IMG/VR virus record: IMGVR_UViG_2690316344_000004
Reading direction: 5' to 3' (one strand)
Length of the DNA stretch: 19,134 bases
Source: a virus
Lineage: Duplodnaviria; Heunggongvirae; Uroviricota; Caudoviricetes
Position 1 is the first letter of the stretch; every line of letters starts with the position of its first letter. This document shows positions 6,001 to 12,000 of the stretch, piece after piece. The position numbers were made by a program.

Positions 6001-9000
6001 GAGACGAAAAACGAGCAGGTGGTATTGCACCAGATAATTGATCGCCGGACAGCATCACTGTGCAGTGTCGGGATGTTAACAAACCTGAATCATGCCGCAA
6101 TGAGTACGCTTCTTGGTGAGAGGATTATGGACCGCATGACCATGAACGGTGGTCGATGGGTGACATTTAACTGGGATAGCTGGCGTCCAAATGTCAGCAA
6201 TATGAGGGTTGTGAAGTAATTTTGTCCGGAGGAAATTTTAATGGAAACCGTATCTGACGCACTGAAAGCACTGAAAAAAGCCTCTTCACATGTGGTGGCA
6301 GCTCGCCTTGGAATCAGTCGTGAAGAGGCTGTCAACGAGCTGTGGGAACTCAAAAGAAATGGCGTCGTTGATAAAACTGGTCACACCTGGTTTCTGGCTG
6401 GCGAAGGTGAATCCCGGGTAACCGAAGAGCGGCCAGTAAAATCTGAAGCACAGGATATGCTGACCGGGGAGGTCGAACAAAAAGTTACCGCCGACATGAT
6501 GATTGAGTTTATCGGTCAGGATGGGGCTAAAACGTGTGAGGAACTGGCGGGTAAGTTCGGTGTCAGTACTCGCAAGGTTGCTTCCACGCTGGCGGTGGTA
6601 ACCGCAACGGGGCGGCTGGCACGCGTTAATCAGAACGGTAAATTTCGTTACTGCATGCCGGGCGATAATTTACCAGCAGAGCCGAAAGCCGCGCTGGTAA
6701 CGGAAAGTGATGGTAAGGCCTTTCCTCAGCCAGCAGGTGCTGCGTTACCAGTCCGGGAAGCCGCAACACAGGAAAAAATTAAAACAGAAACTGTGGCGGA
6801 CATTGTGCAGCCGTTGCCATCGTTTACCGAAACGCAAGCAGATGAGCTGATTTTTCCGTCCCTTCGCAGGGCAAACTTGGCGCTGCGCAGGGCGAAAAGT
6901 GATGTTCAGAAGTGGGAGCGAGTCTGCGCCGCGCTGCGGGAGCTGAACAAGCACCGGGATATTGTTCGACAGATTACTGATTCTTCCCGCCGTGTTGTAT
7001 CGGAAAAGTGATTGCCGGAGGCGCTTATGGCAAAAGTATTTACACAAGAAGAGCGGGAAAAAATTAAAGGGCAGGTTGTTGAACTTGTACGTCTGAGCGG
7101 TCGCGAGACGTTGCGGCAACTGGAAGCCAAGACAGGTGCGACAAGATATCTGATGAGTGTTCTCGCCAGAGAGCTGGTTGCCAGTGGCGATGTATACAAC
7201 TCTGGTTACGGGTTATTCCCGTCTGAACAGGCGCGTAAGGACTGGCAAAACGCCCGCAAAAAACTCTCAAGGGCAAATCTGAAGAAACCATCTGTGGTTG
7301 ATCCGGACCTTATCTGGTCGTTACCAGACGGCGAAATACGCCGCTACGACAGGCGCCTGAATATAATCTGTCGCGAGTGCCGGAAGAGCGAAGCTATGCA
7401 GCGTGTACTGGCATTTTATCAAGGAAATGTTAGGTATTTTAGACGTTACTAGATTAAAGAGCATTAGTTCAGATGTGAATTGACATTTTCATGGCGCAGG
7501 GTAGAGCCAGCGTGGTTGTCCGCTTTGTGCCAGAAGCGGACATAGCAGGTGCCAGATGCATTTGTTATTCTTCATTGAATTGAGCAGTATCCTTAACAGG
7601 AACTCTAAATACATAAATGAAGATGAAAAACATGTCTGAAGTGTTGACCCAAGAAAAGCTTATTTTTGTTGCCCAGAGACTAAAGGCCCTCGCGCAGTCA
7701 GGCCTGACCTATTCAAAAGACGTCTTTGACAAGGAACGCTATGAAGCCTTGCGTGAAATTGCCGCTGGACTGCTGAGTTCGCAGTTTGATATTAGCCGCA
7801 ATGATTTGTTTCATGTATCGGAAACGGGTTACGCGACGCCCAAAACAGATGTGCGTGCGTTTATCCTGCGTAATAATCGTATTCTGATGGTGAAAGAGGC
7901 TGCAGATGGATTATGGAGTCTTCCTGGCGGATGGGCAGATGTTGGAGATACACCTTCTGAAGCTGTGCGTCGAGAGGTCGAAGAAGAAACCGGATTAAAA
8001 GTCAGAGTGACTAAACTATTGGGAGTTTGGGATCGTAATCTTCACGGCCATCCGCCTTTACCCTGGCATGTTTACAAGCTGATTTTTCTCTGTGAAGAAG
8101 TAGGTGGCAGCCTGTCAATCAGCCATGAGTCACTCGATGCTGATTTTTTTGATGTCAACGACCTGCCTGAATTGTCGCTTTCAAGAATTGTGCCTGAGCA
8201 GATTGCTGTCAGCCTGAGAGTAGCGAAAGGTGATGAAAAAACATGGTTTGATTAACTTTCTTCTGCAACCATTAAGGAATGGCAATGATATTCAACGCTA
8301 AGGGTTTTTTATTCGATATGGACGGTACGCTGGTTGATTCAACAGCCGTAGTGGAAAGCGTCTGGAGAGATTTTTGTGCAGAATACGGTCTTGATACTCA
8401 GGCTGTGATTGCTTACGCACACGGGCGGCAAACGATTGATACACTGACGCATTTTATTGGTGCAGGTGAGAAAACCAATAAAATCGCGGCCTCACTCGAA
8501 GAGGTTGAAATCAACACGACAGAAGGCGTTACTGAAGTAAAGGGGGCCGCTGCACTCTTATCAAAACTGCCACCGGATAGCTGGGCACTTGTCACTTCTG
8601 CAGGCAGAATGCTTGCCGAAAACAGGATGAAAGCGGCTAATCTCCCCTTACCCATAGTAATGGTGTGTGCAGAAGATGTAATGACGGGAAAACCAAGTCC
8701 CGAGGGTTACATCAAAGCAGCTTTGGCTTTGGGCCTTGAGCCTGGTGAATGCGTGGTATTTGAGGATGCATCTGCGGGTATAAAAGCAGGGCTGGCAAGT
8801 GGAGCTTCGGTAATAGCTGTTCAGCCTGACGCTCTGGGATCATCTGAAGCCCATGCCGTCAGCGAACTGTCTGACATTATGGTCAAGATTTCCGGAGAAC
8901 GTTTCAATATCATCTGTGGTTAATCACGTTACACAATACGCATCAATGGACGCTGAGTAGCTCGCGAGTTTTAAACTTCCAACGTCCGCTTTTCGCTCAA

Positions 9001-12000
9001 AGCGGACTAGAAGGTTAGCTTGCGTCGGACTTGGCGTATTTAAAGAAGTGCTGGTGGTGACTGGTTGTTGTGTTCCATTTCTACAGAACAAAATCACAGA
9101 AACTATACCCAATAGTTGTATTGAATCACTGACGAGACAGCCTCATATTTATCAGGACTGGTGTACGTCCAATACAGGAGGTTGTGGTGCTGGTTCTCAA
9201 ATGTGCGCTGGCTATTGCTGCTGTAATGGCAATTTATTGCCTTGCTGTTGTTCTTATGGATCGCCTTTCTGATTGATTTCATATTGGCGAGGTGACGGGA
9301 GTTAAGTAGAATGGCTGCGGGTGCTTGAGGCTATCTGTCTCAGGCATGAACACCAAAGGCAGATAGAGAAAAGCCCCAGTTAACATTACGCGTCCTGCAA
9401 GACGCTTAACATTAATCTGAGGCCATATCTATGCTCTACACACGTAGGTTAGCCTCTTACGTGCCGAAAGGCAAGGAGAAGCAGGCTATGAAGCAGCAAA
9501 AGGCGATGCTAATCGCCCTGATCGTCATCTGTTTAACCGTCATTGTGACGGCACTGGTAACGAGGAAAGACCTCTGCGAGGTACGAATCCGAACCGGCCA
9601 GACGGAGGTCGCTGTCTTCACAGCTTACGAACCTGAGGAGTAAGAGACCAGGCGAGGGAGAAATCCCTCGCCACCTCTGATGAGTCAGGCATCCTCAACG
9701 CACCCGCACTTAACCCGCTTCGGCGGGTTTTGTTTTTTCCTGGCATTCTGGTTTACAATTCGCACGTCAGCCTGAACAACTGGCACCTGCTGCGCCAGCA
9801 GAGAAAACAGATGGCGCACGATACCAAATTTTACAATTCGGATAACTCTGCCGCCCCTGCCAGTAGGCACGGGCGGCGTTCTCATGCATTCAAATCTGAC
9901 TGGTATCAGCACGATCCCTGCACTGAAGAACAGGCCGAATGGCTGATTCATAACTACCGCAGACGTGGGTATGAGTTTAAGAAAGCCCTTAGCCTCGACT
10001 ACCGTCACTGGATAATCTACGTCAGGCTCCTTTATTCCGAACGCCCGCCGCGTCCGTCCCGCACATTCCAGCAACGCATCTGGAGGTAACGTGCGGGTAT
10101 TACTTCGACCTGTTCTGGTACCGGAACTCGGGCTGGTGATCGTTAAGCCGGGCCGTGAATCCATGCCGGTATTCCACAATACCCGGGTACTGGTGGAGCC
10201 GGAACCGAAAAGCATGCGTAATCTGCCGTCCGGGGTTGTTCCTGCCGTTCGCCAGCCGCTAGTGGAAGACAAAACATTGCTGCCGTTTTTCAGTAACGCA
10301 CGGGTGATTCGTGCTGCTGGTGCATTGTCTGACTGGCTGTTGCGCCATATTAAATCCTGCCAGTGGCCACACGGCGATTATCATCACAGCGAAACCGTCA
10401 TTCACCGTTATGGTACCGGCGCGATGGTGTTGTGCTGGCACTGTGACAACCAGCTGCGCGACCAGACATCCGAATCACTCGGGCAGCTTGCTCAACAAAA
10501 TCTGACAGCCTGGATGATTGACGTCATCGGTCACGCAATAAGCGGTACGCAGGAGCGTGAATTATCTCTGGCTGAATTATCCTGGTGGGCGGTCCGCAAT
10601 CAGGTGGCGGACGCGCTACCGGAAGCGGTATTACGTCGTTCGCTGGGGTTGCGTGCGGAAAAAATCCGCTCAATGTACCGTGAAAGCGACATCGTGCCGG
10701 GAGAGCAGACCGCCACCAGCATACTGAAACAGCGCACAAAAAATCTTGCGCCGCTGCCTCATGCCCACCAGCAACAGAACCCGCCACAGGAAAAGACGGT
10801 GGTCAGCATTGCTGTTGATCCGGAGTCTCCGGAATCTTTAATGAAGCGACCTAAACGTCGCCGTTGGGTAAATGAGAAATATACGCGCTGGGTAAAGACA
10901 CAGCCGTGTGCGTGTTGTGGTAAGCCAGCCGACGATCCCCATCACCTGATTGGTCATGGTCAGGGCGGAATAGGGACAAAAGCCCACGATATTTTCACGC
11001 TACCGTTGTGCCGGGAGCATCACAACGAACTTCATGCTGATCCGCTGGCATTTGAAGAAAAGCATGGTTCCCAGATTGATTTAATTTTTCGTTTTCTTGA
11101 TCGCGCCTTTGCAACCGGCGTGCTCGGGTAAAAGAGGTTACTGATGCGTATAGAGTTTGTTTTGCCTTACCCGCCGACGGTGAACACCTACTGGCGTCGT
11201 CGTGGCAGCACATATTTTGTGTCAAAAGCCGGTGAGCGTTATCGCCGGGATGTGGCACTTATTGTTCGCCAGCAGCGGCTGAAATTAAACCTGTCCGGAA
11301 GGCTGGCGATAAAGATTATTGCAGAGCCACCGGATAAGCGCCGCCGCGACCTGGACAATATCCTGAAGGCACCACTGGATGCGCTTACGCATGCCGGACT
11401 ACTTATAGACGACGAGCAGTTTGATGAAATCAATATTGTGCGCGGTCAGCTCGTTTCTGGTGGGCGGCTGGGCGTGAAGATTTACAAAATTGAAAGTGAG
11501 TGAGCATAAATATGATATACCCGGAAATTACAGGCAAAAGCGGTGAGCATTTACGCCTGAAAACGCTGGAAAGTGTCTGGATCCAGGGGAAACTGCGTAT
11601 GTGGGGGCGTTGGTCGTATATTGGCGACGGTAAGACGGGAAATATGTTCAACCAATTACTGACCTCTAAAAAGCTGACAAAAACGGCAATTAACGAGGCG
11701 CTCCGGAGGATGAAAAAAGCGGGTCTGGACAAACCTGAACTTGAGGCTTTTTTGCGGGATATGATCAACGGCAATCAAAAAAGCTGGCTGGCACATTGTA
11801 CCGATTCAGAGGCGTTAATAATCGACAGGGTTATTGGTGAAGTACTGGCAGGTTATCCCGGGCTGCTCAATGTTCTGAGTCAGCGTTATGTGGGGCGGGG
11901 GATGACTAAGCGCAAAATGGCTGAACTGCTGAATGATGCACATCCGGAATGGAGTTTAAGAACCTGTGAAAGACGCATTGAGCATTGGCTAAAGGTGGCA

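What the first reader, a model, noticed from the sequence alone, without database searches (positions are those of the whole stretch)
7460..9030. NUDIX hydrolase plus HAD (HxpA-like) phosphatase operon as prophage cargo, bracketed by two hairpins with the same stem
The two genes (7617..8255, 8285..8923) carry textbook catalytic motifs and are 30 bp apart, so they look like one operon. They sit between the replication module and the hok/nin region, a slot that in lambdoid phages usually holds accessory genes. The cassette is bracketed by hairpins with the same 8-bp stem, GTCCGCTT/AAGCGGAC, at 7517..7540 and 8987..9010, with different loops; that is unlikely by chance in 19 kb and suggests a shared regulatory or recombination site delimiting an inserted module. 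The region also looks more AT-rich than the neighbouring replication genes (impression, not computed). A diphosphate-cleaving Nudix enzyme paired with a phospho-sugar/nucleotide phosphatase could degrade a nucleotide-derived signal or feed nucleotide/NAD salvage. Either would be relevant to counter-defence or to host physiology during lysogeny, but the function is unknown.
Basis: partly seen in the sequence, partly recalled or inferred. Interest (0 to 1): 0.75.

Follow-up and report, generated by a model that had tools for sequence, protein, structure and literature searches.

The report
Swappable Nudix–HAD prophage cargo cassette
A two-enzyme gene pair sits in a prophage between two conserved hairpin sites that unrelated coliphages use as fixed boundaries for swapping accessory, mostly anti-phage, genes; the sites were already annotated in P2-like phages in 2004, and the enzyme pair's role is untested.

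Summary
They bracket an intact Nudix gene and an intact HAD gene, and the segment has lower GC than its flanks.

The hairpins are not private to this cassette. They are the upstream (L, core TGTGCCA) and downstream (R, core TCGCTCA) boundary sites of a widespread cassette system. The same sites flank the Z/fun variable region of P2-like phages, where GenBank AJ512676 annotates a 'left inverted repeat'. They also flank the DUF977-hok slot of lambdoid prophages (this window), a slot after tail-fibre genes, and chromosomal arrays.

The 1.49-kb unit 7518-9008 is 99.3% identical in P2-like phages, and homology stops at the outer edges of the hairpins. Across 18 cargo ends seen in more than one backbone, the backbone/cargo junction always falls in or immediately beside the near-invariant heptamer.

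Other cargo in these slots is mostly anti-phage defence (CBASS, reverse transcriptases, SIR2, TIR).

The Nudix belongs to the UDP-Xase/CDP-Chase family. The HAD resembles YfbT/HxpA but scores below the ortholog cutoff.

Verdict: a new member of a known kind. The recombination mechanism and the enzyme function remain open.

The parts
7518..9007 (+). The mobile cassette: L site, Nudix gene, HAD gene, R site (1490 bp).
   Evidence: 99.3% identical over window 7518-9008 to P2-like phages P24C9 and 10W, with homology stopping at the outer hairpin edges. At least 99% identical in 22 of 5426 E. coli genomes, in four or more contexts. GC 0.466 against 0.51-0.52 in the flanks.
7518..7541 (+). L (upstream) boundary site GTCCGCT-T-TGTGCCA-GA-AGCGGAC. 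The left arm plus nt 8 belong to the lambdoid backbone. The right arm travels with the cargo.
   Evidence: The same site type lies 53-66 nt after gene G in P2-like phages and is annotated as the end of the 'left inverted repeat' in AJ512676.
7526..7532 (+). L core heptamer TGTGCCA, where the backbone-linked and cargo-linked halves of the site meet.
   Evidence: Six of the seven positions are 99-100% conserved in 134 distinct L sites and the first T is 85% conserved; the arms are 79-99%. In 10 cargo types seen in more than one backbone, the junction falls at nt 9-17, in or just after the heptamer.
7617..8255 (+). Nudix diphosphatase of the UDP-Xase/CDP-Chase (Nudix_N + NUDIX) family, 212 aa.
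   Evidence: Pfam PF12535 and PF00293. PDB 3Q1P at E 7e-50, 3O8S at 4e-42, 4HFQ at 2e-37. The family motifs GLTYSKDVFDKERY, LPELS and GGWADVGDTPSEAVRREVEEETGL match those given in PMC3655063.
8285..8923 (+). HAD-IA phosphatase of the sugar/polyol-phosphate phosphatase type, 212 aa.
   Evidence: HAD_2 at 5e-22. NCBIfam PRK11587 'sugar phosphatase' scores 189 bits, below its cutoff of 282. The best solved relative is yeast glycerol-3-phosphatase 2QLT at E 3e-22.
8984..9007 (+). R (downstream) boundary site GTCCGCT-TT-TCGCTCA-A-AGCGGAC. The left arm travels with the cargo. The right arm belongs to the backbone.
   Evidence: In P2-like phages the R site lies 215-217 nt before gene FI.
8993..8999 (+). 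R core heptamer TCGCTCA, the junction of the cargo-linked and backbone-linked halves.
   Evidence: The first six positions are 99-100% conserved and the last (A) is 80% conserved in 135 distinct R sites. In 8 cargo types seen in more than one backbone, the junction falls at nt 10-16.
7012..7517 (+). Left edge of the slot in the lambdoid backbone: the DUF977 gene and the conserved spacer ending ...gcgtggtt.
   Evidence: The flank up to window 7527 is shared by about 2300 E. coli genomes carrying different cargo. 36 L sites share this flank.
9008..9100 (+). Right edge of the slot in the lambdoid backbone (tagaaggttagcttgcgtcggac...). By eye it resembles a decayed linker plus L site.
   Evidence: The flank starting at 8979-8993 is shared by many genomes with other cargo. 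32 R sites share this flank. The resemblance to the R-18-L composite is my reading, not a statistical test.

Best explanation
Window 7518-9007 is one cargo cassette of a cassette-exchange system used by temperate enterobacterial phages.

Each slot in a phage backbone is bounded by two 24-bp sites. Upstream is L, GTCCGCT-Y-TGTGCCA-RR-AGCGGAC. Downstream is R, GTCCGCT-YY-TCGCTCA-A-AGCGGAC, which is roughly L inverted. Cassettes move between slots by a double exchange, L with L and R with R. The outer arm of each site therefore stays with the backbone and the inner arm travels with the cargo.

Shown here: the sites, their positions, the linkage pattern, and transfer of this exact cassette between a lambdoid slot, the P2 Z/fun slot and two other contexts.

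Inferred, the enzyme. I think a site-specific reaction on arm-core-arm sites with two non-compatible cores (a natural cassette exchange) is the most likely single mechanism, at about 0.45. Short-homology recombination by Red/RecET/RecA at the same sequences is about 0.35.

Inferred, the cargo. The cargo encodes a two-step hydrolytic route. A UDP-Xase/CDP-Chase-type Nudix would split a pyrimidine NDP-X (a nucleotide-sugar or CDP-alcohol) into NMP plus X-phosphate. The HAD phosphatase would then remove the phosphate, making the drain irreversible. Because the slot mostly carries anti-phage systems, I give about 0.3 that the pair acts in phage-phage or phage-host conflict rather than ordinary metabolism.
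For: Cassette and transfer. The unit is 99.3% identical in P2-like phages between the tail-fibre assembly gene G and the sheath gene FI, with homology ending at the hairpin edges. The same unit lies by paoD in a prophage remnant and in an island. It is present in only 22 of 5426 E. coli genomes, all at 99% identity or more.

Generic sites. The fetched loci hold 98 L...R cassettes of 101-5880 bp and 121 cargo protein clusters. Arrays have R-18 nt-L junctions. In P2-like phages L lies 53-66 nt after G and R lies 215-217 nt before FI, whatever the cargo. The P2 genome has exactly these two sites.

Linkage. Nt 8 of L is C behind P2 flanks and T behind lambdoid flanks. Nt 16-24 follow the cargo. 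The R site shows the mirror pattern.

Core conservation. The core is more conserved than the arms.

No L/R hybrids. Two hybrid-pattern scans gave 2 and 3 hits, none of them a genuine site.

Prior annotation. AJ512676 marks inverted repeats around the P2-EC30 Z region.

Cargo in these slots. SMODS/SLATT/SAVED, reverse transcriptases, TIR, SIR2, HEPN, AIPR and PD-T7-1.

Enzymes.. The pair is conserved at 72-90% identity elsewhere.
Against: No recombinase is associated with the sites. P2-like and lambdoid phages share none, and chromosomal arrays show none nearby.

The junction mapping rests on few markers: nt 4 and 8 on one side, and nt 16-24 on the other. About 5 clean P2/lambdoid L-end events give roughly p = 0.002 against a uniform crossover position. 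Heteroduplex repair could mimic this pattern.

Stem covariation is weak. C.A and T.G mismatches at stem position 4 are common.

Core conservation is partly inflated by how the sites were collected, since at most 1 core mismatch was allowed.

The hairpins could instead be conserved for an RNA or DNA-structure role.

No promoter or terminator consensus was found in the cassette, so its expression is unknown.

Neither enzyme has been assayed. PADLOC gives only a weak generic Nudix hit (PDC-S07, E 7e-10) and nothing for the HAD.
Confidence: 0.6

Rival explanations
1. The hairpins are shared short sequences kept for another reason. Cassette exchange is ordinary short-homology recombination (lambdoid Red/RecET, or RecA) between co-resident prophages, with no dedicated enzyme.
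For: The 24-bp site is the only sequence shared between P2 and lambdoid flanks, so any crossover must map there. No recombinase gene is associated with the sites. A comparable model exists for T4-type phages, the PeSL 'mobile regulatory cassettes' (PMC2839356, found). Rousset et al. invoke homologous recombination for the other P2 hotspot.
Against: Backbone-specific nt 8 and cargo-specific nt 16-24 never cross over in the informative cases. The uninterrupted identity between heterologous partners is only about 7-16 nt. The heptamers are more conserved than the arms, which homology alone does not explain.
Confidence: 0.35
2. L and R are RNA or transcription elements of the backbone operon, such as 5'/3' stabilising stem-loops, insulators or processing sites that wall off foreign cargo. 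Their role as recombination boundaries is a by-product.
For: L and R keep a fixed orientation relative to backbone transcription in both P2 (G towards FI) and lambdoid (DUF977 towards hok) slots. The folds are stable. The loop heptamers are nearly invariant, as expected for a protein-binding loop. In P2 the real intrinsic terminator lies downstream of R.
Against: Cargo genes lie on either strand relative to L and R: 97 kb forward and 38 kb reverse. No U-tract follows either hairpin, and neither is flagged as a terminator. There is no Rfam match. True compensatory stem changes are rare, while C.A mismatches, which are bad for RNA, are as common as T.G.
Confidence: 0.25
3. The R-18-L doublet is a REP/BIME/REPIN-type selfish palindromic repeat that spreads by a transposase (RAYT-like or other). 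Genes merely happen to lie between copies.
For: The doublet is two inverted palindromes with a conserved 18-nt linker, and it can fold into one long hairpin of -30.5 kcal/mol. It separates ordinary chromosomal gene units in an Enterobacterales locus. Hairpins with the same stem are high-copy tandem repeats in Xanthobacteraceae and Pseudolabrys MAGs.
Against: There are at most 7 places per E. coli genome. In P2 and lambdoid slots the order is L...cargo...R, with backbone-specific outer arms at fixed positions. That is not what independent insertions of a doublet would give. The sites do not match the described GTAG or CGTC REP families.
Confidence: 0.1
4. The two hairpins share a stem by chance, or are ordinary intrinsic terminators.
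For: None beyond their being GC-rich stem-loops.
Against: 0.00 matches expected in shuffles. The sites are conserved at homologous positions in hundreds of loci. There is no T-run.
Confidence: 0.01

Closest known systems
Z/fun variable region of P2-like coliphages with flanking inverted repeats (Nilsson, Karlsson & Haggard-Ljungquist 2004, Mol Biol Evol 21:1; GenBank AJ512676)
   Same: The same L and R sites lie at the same places after G and before FI. The Nudix-HAD cassette itself sits there in phages P24C9, 10W and 11W. The paper's title already proposes site-specific recombination linking P2-like phages to other enterobacterial genomes.
   Different: This copy is in a lambdoid early-region slot (DUF977-hok), not in P2. 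I could not read the paper. I therefore cannot say whether the 7-nt cores, the backbone/cargo linkage, the arrays or the defence content were described there.
[quoted passage not shown] 2022, PMC9122126)
   Same: Small loci of 1-5 kb between conserved phage genes, with high turnover, carrying anti-phage systems.
   Different: That paper discusses cos-adjacent hotspots and suggests recombination at cohesive ends. It does not mention hairpins, stem-loops or inverted repeats. In P2 the L and R sites flank only the G/FI slot.
Integron gene cassettes and attC sites
   Same: Promoterless or self-contained cassettes of very diverse content. Arrays are separated by imperfect-palindrome sites of about 60 bp that can fold. 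Toxin-antitoxin and defence cargo is present.
   Different: There are no GTTRRRY/RYYYAAC core sites and no IntI gene. There are two distinct site types per cassette instead of one attC. Cassettes appear to be exchanged rather than inserted at an attI site.
Recombinase-mediated cassette exchange with heterospecific lox/FRT sites (an engineering method)
   Same: Two sites with inverted arms around a 7-8 bp spacer whose sequences differ (L TGTGCCA; R read inverted TGAGCGA). L would pair only with L, and R only with R. No L/R hybrids were found.
   Different: No recombinase is known for these sites. The analogy is architectural only.
PeSL mobile regulatory cassettes of T4-type phages (Arbiol et al. 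2010, PMC2839356)
   Same: Short conserved stem-loop-containing sequences flank novel ORFs and are proposed to mediate modular shuffling.
   Different: PeSLs carry an early promoter and act by homology in lytic phages. Here there are two different sites, no promoter consensus, temperate phages of unrelated families, and chromosomal arrays.
REP/BIME/REPIN palindromic repeats
   Same: Inverted palindrome doublets with a conserved linker, located between genes.
   Different: Low copy number in E. coli. Fixed backbone positions. No RAYT link. Not one of the GTAG or CGTC families.
UDP-X diphosphatase (S. pneumoniae SP_1669, 4HFQ) and CDP-Chase (B. cereus, 3Q1P) Nudix family
   Same: About 210 aa, an N-terminal helical domain plus a Nudix domain, and all family motifs present.
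   Different: The family was described as Gram-positive only (PMC3655063). Here it is in Enterobacterales and phages and is paired with a HAD phosphatase. The substrate is unknown.
E. coli YfbT/HxpA sugar phosphatase (NCBIfam PRK11587)
   Same: It is the best NCBIfam match, and both are HAD-IA with a cap domain.
   Different: The score of 189 is below the equivalog cutoff of 282, so this is a relative and not an ortholog.

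Membership tests
NUDIX hydrolase, UDP-Xase/CDP-Chase subfamily | Nudix_N helical domain plus NUDIX fold, about 200-210 aa | tested here: met
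   PF12535 at 7.6e-18 and PF00293 at 7.9e-19, 212 aa. 3Q1P at E 7e-50 over residues 19-204.
NUDIX hydrolase, UDP-Xase/CDP-Chase subfamily | Subfamily motifs: N-terminal G-U-x-ar-x2-D-x-ar-D-x-E-R-ar, LPxLS, and a Nudix box of the form G-x-ar-x-[ED]-U-x2-[ST]-x2-E-x3-K-E-U-x-E-E-x-G-U (PMC3655063) | tested here: met
   GLTYSKDVFDKERY, LPELS and GGWADVGDTPSEAVRREVEEETGL, read from the alignment against the motifs quoted. K is replaced by R.
NUDIX hydrolase, UDP-Xase/CDP-Chase subfamily | Hydrolysis of UDP-X or CDP-choline; 3'-5' RNA exonuclease activity | not testable with these tools
   Needs enzymology.
HAD-IA phosphatase | DxDxT nucleophile motif, S/T motif, conserved Lys, acidic motif IV | tested here: met
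   FDMDGT, VTSAG, GKPSPE and FEDASAG seen in the alignment. HAD_2 at 5e-22.
HxpA/YfbT equivalog (PRK11587) | Score at or above NCBIfam's curated cutoff | tested here: not met
   189.3 bits against a cutoff of 282.
P2 Z/fun-type cassette slot with flanking inverted repeats | L-type site upstream and R-type site downstream of the variable cargo | tested here: met
   Window 7518-7541 and 8984-9007. The same site types occur in P2, P2-EC30 and P24C9.
P2 Z/fun-type cassette slot with flanking inverted repeats | The same cargo found in P2-like phages at the G/FI position | tested here: met
   99.3% identity in P24C9 and 10W.
Moron (Juhala/Hendrix sense) | Own promoter upstream and factor-independent terminator downstream | tested here: not met
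   No sigma-70 consensus in 7400-7620, and no terminator-like site after 8923 on the + strand. A simple scan can miss weak signals.
Integron cassette / attC | attC with RYYYAAC...GTTRRRY core sites and an IntI integrase platform | tested here: not met
   The site sequences lack these cores. No integrase adjoins the arrays.
Tyrosine-recombinase core-type site | Inverted binding arms around a 6-8 bp overlap that must match between partners | tested here: met
   Architecture 8-7-9 (L) and 9-7-8 (R). The junctions lie in or beside the 7-nt core.
Tyrosine-recombinase core-type site | A cognate recombinase that cleaves at the overlap edges | not testable with these tools
   None identified. The Tn554-like recombinase pair in L112 is a single case.
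REP/BIME/REPIN | High copy number spread over the host chromosome | tested here: not met
   In E. coli the median is 1 and the maximum is 7 places per genome. Other genera were not fully censused.
REP/BIME/REPIN | Inverted doublets with a short linker that fold as one hairpin | tested here: met
   R-to-L start spacing is 42 nt in 17 of 23 cases. The doublet folds at -30.5 kcal/mol.
Intrinsic terminator | GC-rich stem followed by a U-run | tested here: not met
   The hairpins are followed by ATAGCAGG and TAGAAGG and are not flagged.
Known anti-phage defence or counter-defence system | Match to a curated defence-protein model | tested here: inconclusive
   The Nudix hits candidate PDC-S07 at E 6.6e-10 (36.8 bits), a domain-level match. 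The HAD has no hit.

The most novel reading that the evidence does not exclude
L and R are the substrates of a still unidentified site-specific recombination system, possibly host-encoded. This system would perform natural cassette exchange through two non-compatible 7-bp cores. It would shuttle defence and accessory genes among unrelated temperate phages (P2-like, lambdoid early region, lambdoid tail-fibre end) and chromosomal cassette arrays of Enterobacterales. In effect it would be an integron-like gene-capture system without an adjacent integrase. Within it, the Nudix-HAD pair would be a defence or exclusion module that drains a nucleotide-sugar pool such as UDP-glucose.
Probability: 0.25. 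Interest if true: 0.85.

Novelty: new member of a known kind. Interest (0 to 1): 0.55.

Why it matters
How defence hotspots in phages turn over is an open question. Rousset et al. 2022 say that experiments are still needed on the recombination pathway.

These data give a concrete, testable handle. There are two 24-bp sites with near-invariant 7-nt cores, and the backbone/cargo junction maps to or beside those cores in every informative case. The sites are shared by phage families that have no genes in common.

If an enzyme recognises them, it would be a new gene-capture mechanism and a ready-made cassette-exchange tool. If not, they are a clean natural example of portable micro-homologies that drive phage mosaicism.

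The L/R pair is also a practical marker for mining uncharacterised cargo, such as this Nudix-HAD pair, from defence slots.

The enzyme pair itself is a modest lead. It extends a Nudix family thought to be Gram-positive-specific into enterobacterial phages, coupled to a phosphatase.

Tried and rejected
- **Chance or terminator.** Rejected.
- **Rfam.** Only sok/hok matched; nothing on the hairpins.
- **Insertion into an empty palindrome, with the crossover at the loop centre.** I predicted hybrid sites (L-left/R-right and R-left/L-right) and scanned viral contigs. The 2 and 3 hits were all spurious, so there are no empty or hybrid sites.
- **Inversion of cargo between L and R, as in a shufflon.** No cargo cluster occurs in both orientations. 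The Rci sfx core GTGCCAA resembles the L core, but the arms differ. I treat this as a lead only.
- **Integron attC.** Core motifs and integrase are absent.
- **REP in E. coli.** Copy number is too low. The described GTAG and CGTC REP families do not match.
- **A recombinase encoded next to the sites.** The only case, L112, is a Tn554-like pair with an ars operon and is probably an unrelated insertion.
- **Stem covariation as evidence for structure.** Weak.
- **Own promoter.** None found.
- **Literature.** Nilsson 2004 and Odegrip 2006 are not held. Motif-string and keyword searches found nothing relevant.
- **Structure prediction.** Not run, because close solved homologues exist.

Full report
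**1. The observation**

The pattern GTCCGCTT-N(4-14)-AAGCGGAC occurs exactly twice in the 19-kb window, at 7518-7541 and 8984-9007. None is expected in 200 shuffles. The octamer occurs nowhere else.

Both hairpins fold stably, at -19.6 and -15.8 kcal/mol with z about -4. Neither is followed by a T-run, and neither is flagged as an intrinsic terminator.

Between them lie two ORFs:
- 7617-8255, with Nudix_N plus NUDIX domains.
- 8285-8923, with HAD_2.

The two are 29 nt apart on the same strand, and their catalytic motifs are intact (alignments).

GC of 7518-9007 is 0.466, against 0.518 and 0.514 for the flanking gene blocks. Third-position GC is 0.418 for both genes, against 0.50-0.62 for the neighbours. 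The factual part of the finding is therefore correct.

**2. Surroundings**

The window is a Rac/Qin-type lambdoid prophage. In order it carries:
- YdaS/YdaT
- an O-like HTH protein
- a DnaC-like ATPase
- DUF1627
- DUF977
- the cassette
- sok/hok
- DUF968
- RusA
- a Q-like DUF1133 protein
- a DNA methylase
- three tRNAs
- two DUF1737-SASA esterases

**3. The cassette is a discrete transferable unit**

Megablast against phage genomes found window 7518-9008, hairpin to hairpin, at 99.3% identity in the P2-like phages P24C9 and 10W. It also found it, heavily masked, in 11W. There it sits between the tail-fibre assembly gene G and the sheath gene FI. Outside the hairpins the sequences are unrelated.

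Among 5426 complete E. coli genomes only 22 carry the cassette, all at 99% identity or more. The contexts are:
- the same DUF977-hokD slot (L006-L008);
- the end of a tail-fibre region next to paoD and a tRNA (L005);
- an island between an ankyrin-repeat gene and an integrase, with a truncated HAD (L009);
- an IS3-truncated copy (L010).

In every context the inner arms and loops are the same, while the outer arms differ:
- Outer arm of L: GTCCGCTT, GTCCGCTC, GTCTGCTC or TTCTGCTT.
- Outer arm of R: AAGCGGAC, AAGCAGAC or TAACAGAC.

**4. The hairpins are generic**

About 2300 E. coli genomes share the left flank up to 7527 and/or the right flank from about 8979-8993, but with other cargo in between. 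Examples are:
- a DUF5677 protein;
- QueH;
- TetR plus adenosine deaminase plus Ham1 plus SIR2;
- two hypothetical proteins;
- an S1 peptidase.

Each of these cargos brings its own copy of the inner arm.

The fetched loci gave the following:
- 98 L...R cassettes of 101-5880 bp.
- 121 cargo protein clusters, with ORFs on either strand: 97 kb forward and 38 kb reverse.
- Arrays of the form L-cargo-R-18 nt-L-cargo-R, with R-to-L start spacing of 42 nt in 17 of 23 cases and a conserved linker, about CTTCAGCTCAGTTACCTT.

Loops are almost always 10 nt and of two kinds, YTGTGCCARR (L) and YTTCGCTCAH (R). Read inverted, the R loop matches the L loop at 7 of 10 positions. The cassette ends are therefore imperfect 24-bp inverted repeats.

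Of the 241 sequences held at that point (240 fetched loci plus the window):
- 34 are P2-like, all with hairpins.
- 55 are lambdoid early-region slots, 54 with hairpins.
- 67 others have full hairpins. Examples sit after lambda-type J/stf/tfa tail genes next to SRAP/UmuC genes.

**5. Prior knowledge**

GenBank AJ512676.1 ('Bacteriophage P2-EC30 proviral Z-region') annotates a 'left inverted repeat' at 3..115, which ends with the L hairpin. It also annotates a second repeat region at 1942..2032, which begins with the R hairpin.

P2 itself has exactly two such hairpins in its whole genome, flanking orf30/fun(Z).

[quoted passage not shown] I could not read that paper. The existence of flanking inverted repeats, and the idea of site-specific exchange with other enterobacterial genomes, must therefore be treated as already published.

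Rousset et al. 2022 describe P2/P4 defence hotspots. They discuss cos-adjacent loci, never mention hairpins or inverted repeats, and leave the recombination pathway open.

**6. Anatomy of the sites and where exchange happens**

In P2-like phages L starts 53-66 nt after G, and R starts 215-217 nt before FI, whatever the cargo.

I sorted sites by backbone flank and by cargo flank, which shows a clean partition.

In L:
- The left arm and nt 8 follow the backbone (P2 ...taatctgacaGTCCGCT-C; lambdoid ...gcgtggttGTCCGCT-T).
- The heptamer TGTGCCA (nt 9-15) is nearly invariant.
- Nt 16-24 follow the cargo, for example AA-AGCAGAC, TT-ACCGGAC and GG-AGCGGAA.

In R the pattern is mirrored:
- The left arm plus two nt follow the cargo.
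- TCGCTCA is nearly invariant.
- The right arm follows the backbone (P2 AGCAGACtgtcag; lambdoid AGCGGACtagaagg).

Ten cargo types at the L end and eight at the R end occur behind more than one backbone. In all of them the junction lies in or immediately next to the heptamer.

Over 134 and 135 distinct sites, six of the seven core positions are 99-100% conserved in each site type; the first T of the L core is 85% and the last A of the R core is 80%. The arms are 56-99% conserved. One caveat is that sites were collected allowing at most 1 core mismatch.

The geometry is 8-7-9 for L and 9-7-8 for R. That is the geometry of a tyrosine-recombinase core site. The two cores (TGTGCCA, and TGAGCGA for R read inverted) differ at 2 of 7 positions. 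L/R hybrid sites are absent from viral contigs.

**7. Mechanism**

What is shown: cassettes are exchanged between unrelated backbones, with breakpoints inside L and R.

What is inferred: the enzyme.

I favour a site-specific reaction, at about 0.45. My reasons are the site architecture, a core that is more conserved than the arms, the confinement of junctions, and the strict separation of L from R.

The evidence is thin. Only about five clean P2/lambdoid events are informative at the L end, giving roughly p = 0.002 against a uniform crossover over 24 bp. No recombinase is associated with the sites.

Short-homology recombination by Red/RecET/RecA, at about 0.35, explains the same map if the hairpins are kept for another function.

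An RNA or insulator role is possible but poorly supported: cargo lies on both strands, there is no U-tract, C.A mismatches are as common as T.G, and there is little compensatory change.

A REP/REPIN-like nature fits several facts:
- the inverted doublet, which folds into a long hairpin of -30.5 kcal/mol;
- a chromosomal locus where doublets separate ordinary gene units (ArsR/ACT, AraC+LysE, a phytase-like protein, LysR);
- high-copy tandem hairpins with the same stem but other loops in Xanthobacteraceae and Pseudolabrys MAGs.

E. coli, however, has at most 7 copies per genome. The fixed backbone positions argue against independent insertions. The described GTAG and CGTC REP families do not match.

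**8. The cargo**

The Nudix is about half identical to B. cereus CDP-Chase (3Q1P, E 7e-50). It is also close to 3O8S and to S. pneumoniae UDP-X diphosphatase 4HFQ. It carries every motif that defines that subfamily. Members of the subfamily hydrolyse CDP-choline or UDP-glucose, UDP-MurNAc and UDP-MurNAc-L-Ala, and they also have 3'-5' RNase activity (PMC3655063).

The HAD is a class IA sugar/polyol-phosphate phosphatase. Its best NCBIfam match is YfbT/HxpA, but below the ortholog cutoff (189 against 282 bits). Its best solved relative is yeast glycerol-3-phosphatase.

Homologues of the Nudix at 67-84% identity are lone genes in what look like chromosomal settings, in Cedecea, Leclercia and an unidentified Logan (SRA-assembly) contig (L366), where the gene sits between two L hairpins. 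The pair is nevertheless conserved at 72-90% identity in four other loci. Two of these have L/R hairpins (one also has a GGACT gene in the cassette), and two have none. So the pairing is older than this prophage and is probably functional.

The simplest chemistry is NDP-X to NMP plus X-phosphate, then X-phosphate to X plus Pi. That would be an irreversible drain on a nucleotide-linked precursor.

Other cargo of these slots is dominated by defence genes:
- CBASS cyclases with SLATT, SAVED or E1-E2 partners
- RT-Protease and RT-Toprim retron-type reverse transcriptases, and DRTs
- TIR, SIR2 and HEPN domain proteins
- AIPR
- PD-T7-1

Plainly metabolic cargo also occurs (ArsB, EAL, TerC, GNAT, QueH).

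PADLOC gives only a generic Nudix hit for this pair. I put a conflict-related role at about 0.3, for example depleting UDP-glucose or an envelope precursor. That role is untested.

**9. Verdict**

The cassette is a new cargo member of a known kind of locus, namely the inverted-repeat-bounded variable slot first described around P2 Z/fun.

As far as I could check, what goes beyond the accessible literature is:
- the two-core L/R anatomy;
- the backbone/cargo linkage map;
- the arrays;
- the spread to lambdoid slots and chromosomal arrays;
- the defence-rich cargo.

All of this needs checking against Nilsson 2004. It makes the mechanism of hotspot turnover directly testable.

Noticed in passing
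L246-L365 (genome-contig scan), e.g. L341, L349, L352: Xanthobacteraceae, Pseudolabrys and Hyphomicrobiales MAGs carry many tandem hairpins. They have the same stem (ATGTCCGCTTT...AAAGCGGACAT) but different loops (ACCCCCG, GGGTCA, GTGCCAAT), separated by about 20-nt linkers (ATGTGCAGTGCAAC...). This looks like a high-copy relative of the enterobacterial R-18-L doublet.
   Followed up: partly
L358:500-6000: A non-phage Enterobacterales locus holds an array of units separated by R-L doublets: ArsR-like plus ACT, AraC plus LysE, a phytase-like esterase, and LysR. The cassette architecture is therefore not restricted to phages.
   Followed up: partly
L004:4228-4893 (E. coli MNCRE44): The same DUF977-hokD slot carries an epoxyqueuosine reductase QueH gene. 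Only the left arm of the L site is recognisable, and there is no R site.
   Followed up: no
L011:172-3245 and L195: One 3.5-kb L...R cassette encodes TetR, adenosine deaminase, a Ham1-type non-canonical NTP pyrophosphatase and a SIR2 protein. It is a possible nucleotide-targeting defence system.
   Followed up: no
L112:2887-6671: An S24-like gene and two tandem tyrosine recombinases (335 and 707 aa, Tn554-like) end 8 nt before an L site that precedes an arsR-arsH-arsB unit. This is probably an unrelated transposon, but it is the only recombinase seen next to these sites.
   Followed up: partly
window 7526-7532 and L sites generally: The L core (T)GTGCCA(A/G) resembles the 7-bp core GTGCCAA of the Rci shufflon sfx sites (PMC4176322). 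The arms are unrelated, and no cargo inversion was seen.
   Followed up: partly
L366:4229-5110: An 84%-identical Nudix gene without the HAD sits alone between two L-type hairpins. An R hairpin lies 2.9 kb further on, next to a MazE/PIN pair.
   Followed up: no
L215:1946-2046: An 'empty' L...R unit of only 101 bp lies inside an array.
   Followed up: no
window 9319-9643: A sok antisense RNA (Rfam RF01794, 114.7 bits) and a hok/gef toxin gene lie directly downstream of the slot.
   Followed up: yes
window 12639-17544: A DNA methylase (12639-13697), a tRNA-Met/Arg/Arg cluster (13738-13987), and two adjacent DUF1737-SASA (sialate O-acetylesterase-like) genes, the second with a DUF6645 tail.
   Followed up: no
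L002 (Escherichia phage 11W, OM475429.1) 4020-5240: The deposited record is riddled with N inside the Nudix-HAD cassette. The genes are annotated only as 'similar to hypothetical protein', which suggests an assembly or consensus problem rather than decay.
   Followed up: no
The UDP-Xase/CDP-Chase Nudix subfamily was described as restricted to Gram-positive bacteria. More than 5000 relatives with E of 1e-20 or better include many Enterobacterales (Cedecea, Leclercia, Pantoea, Kluyvera, Sodalis).
   Followed up: partly
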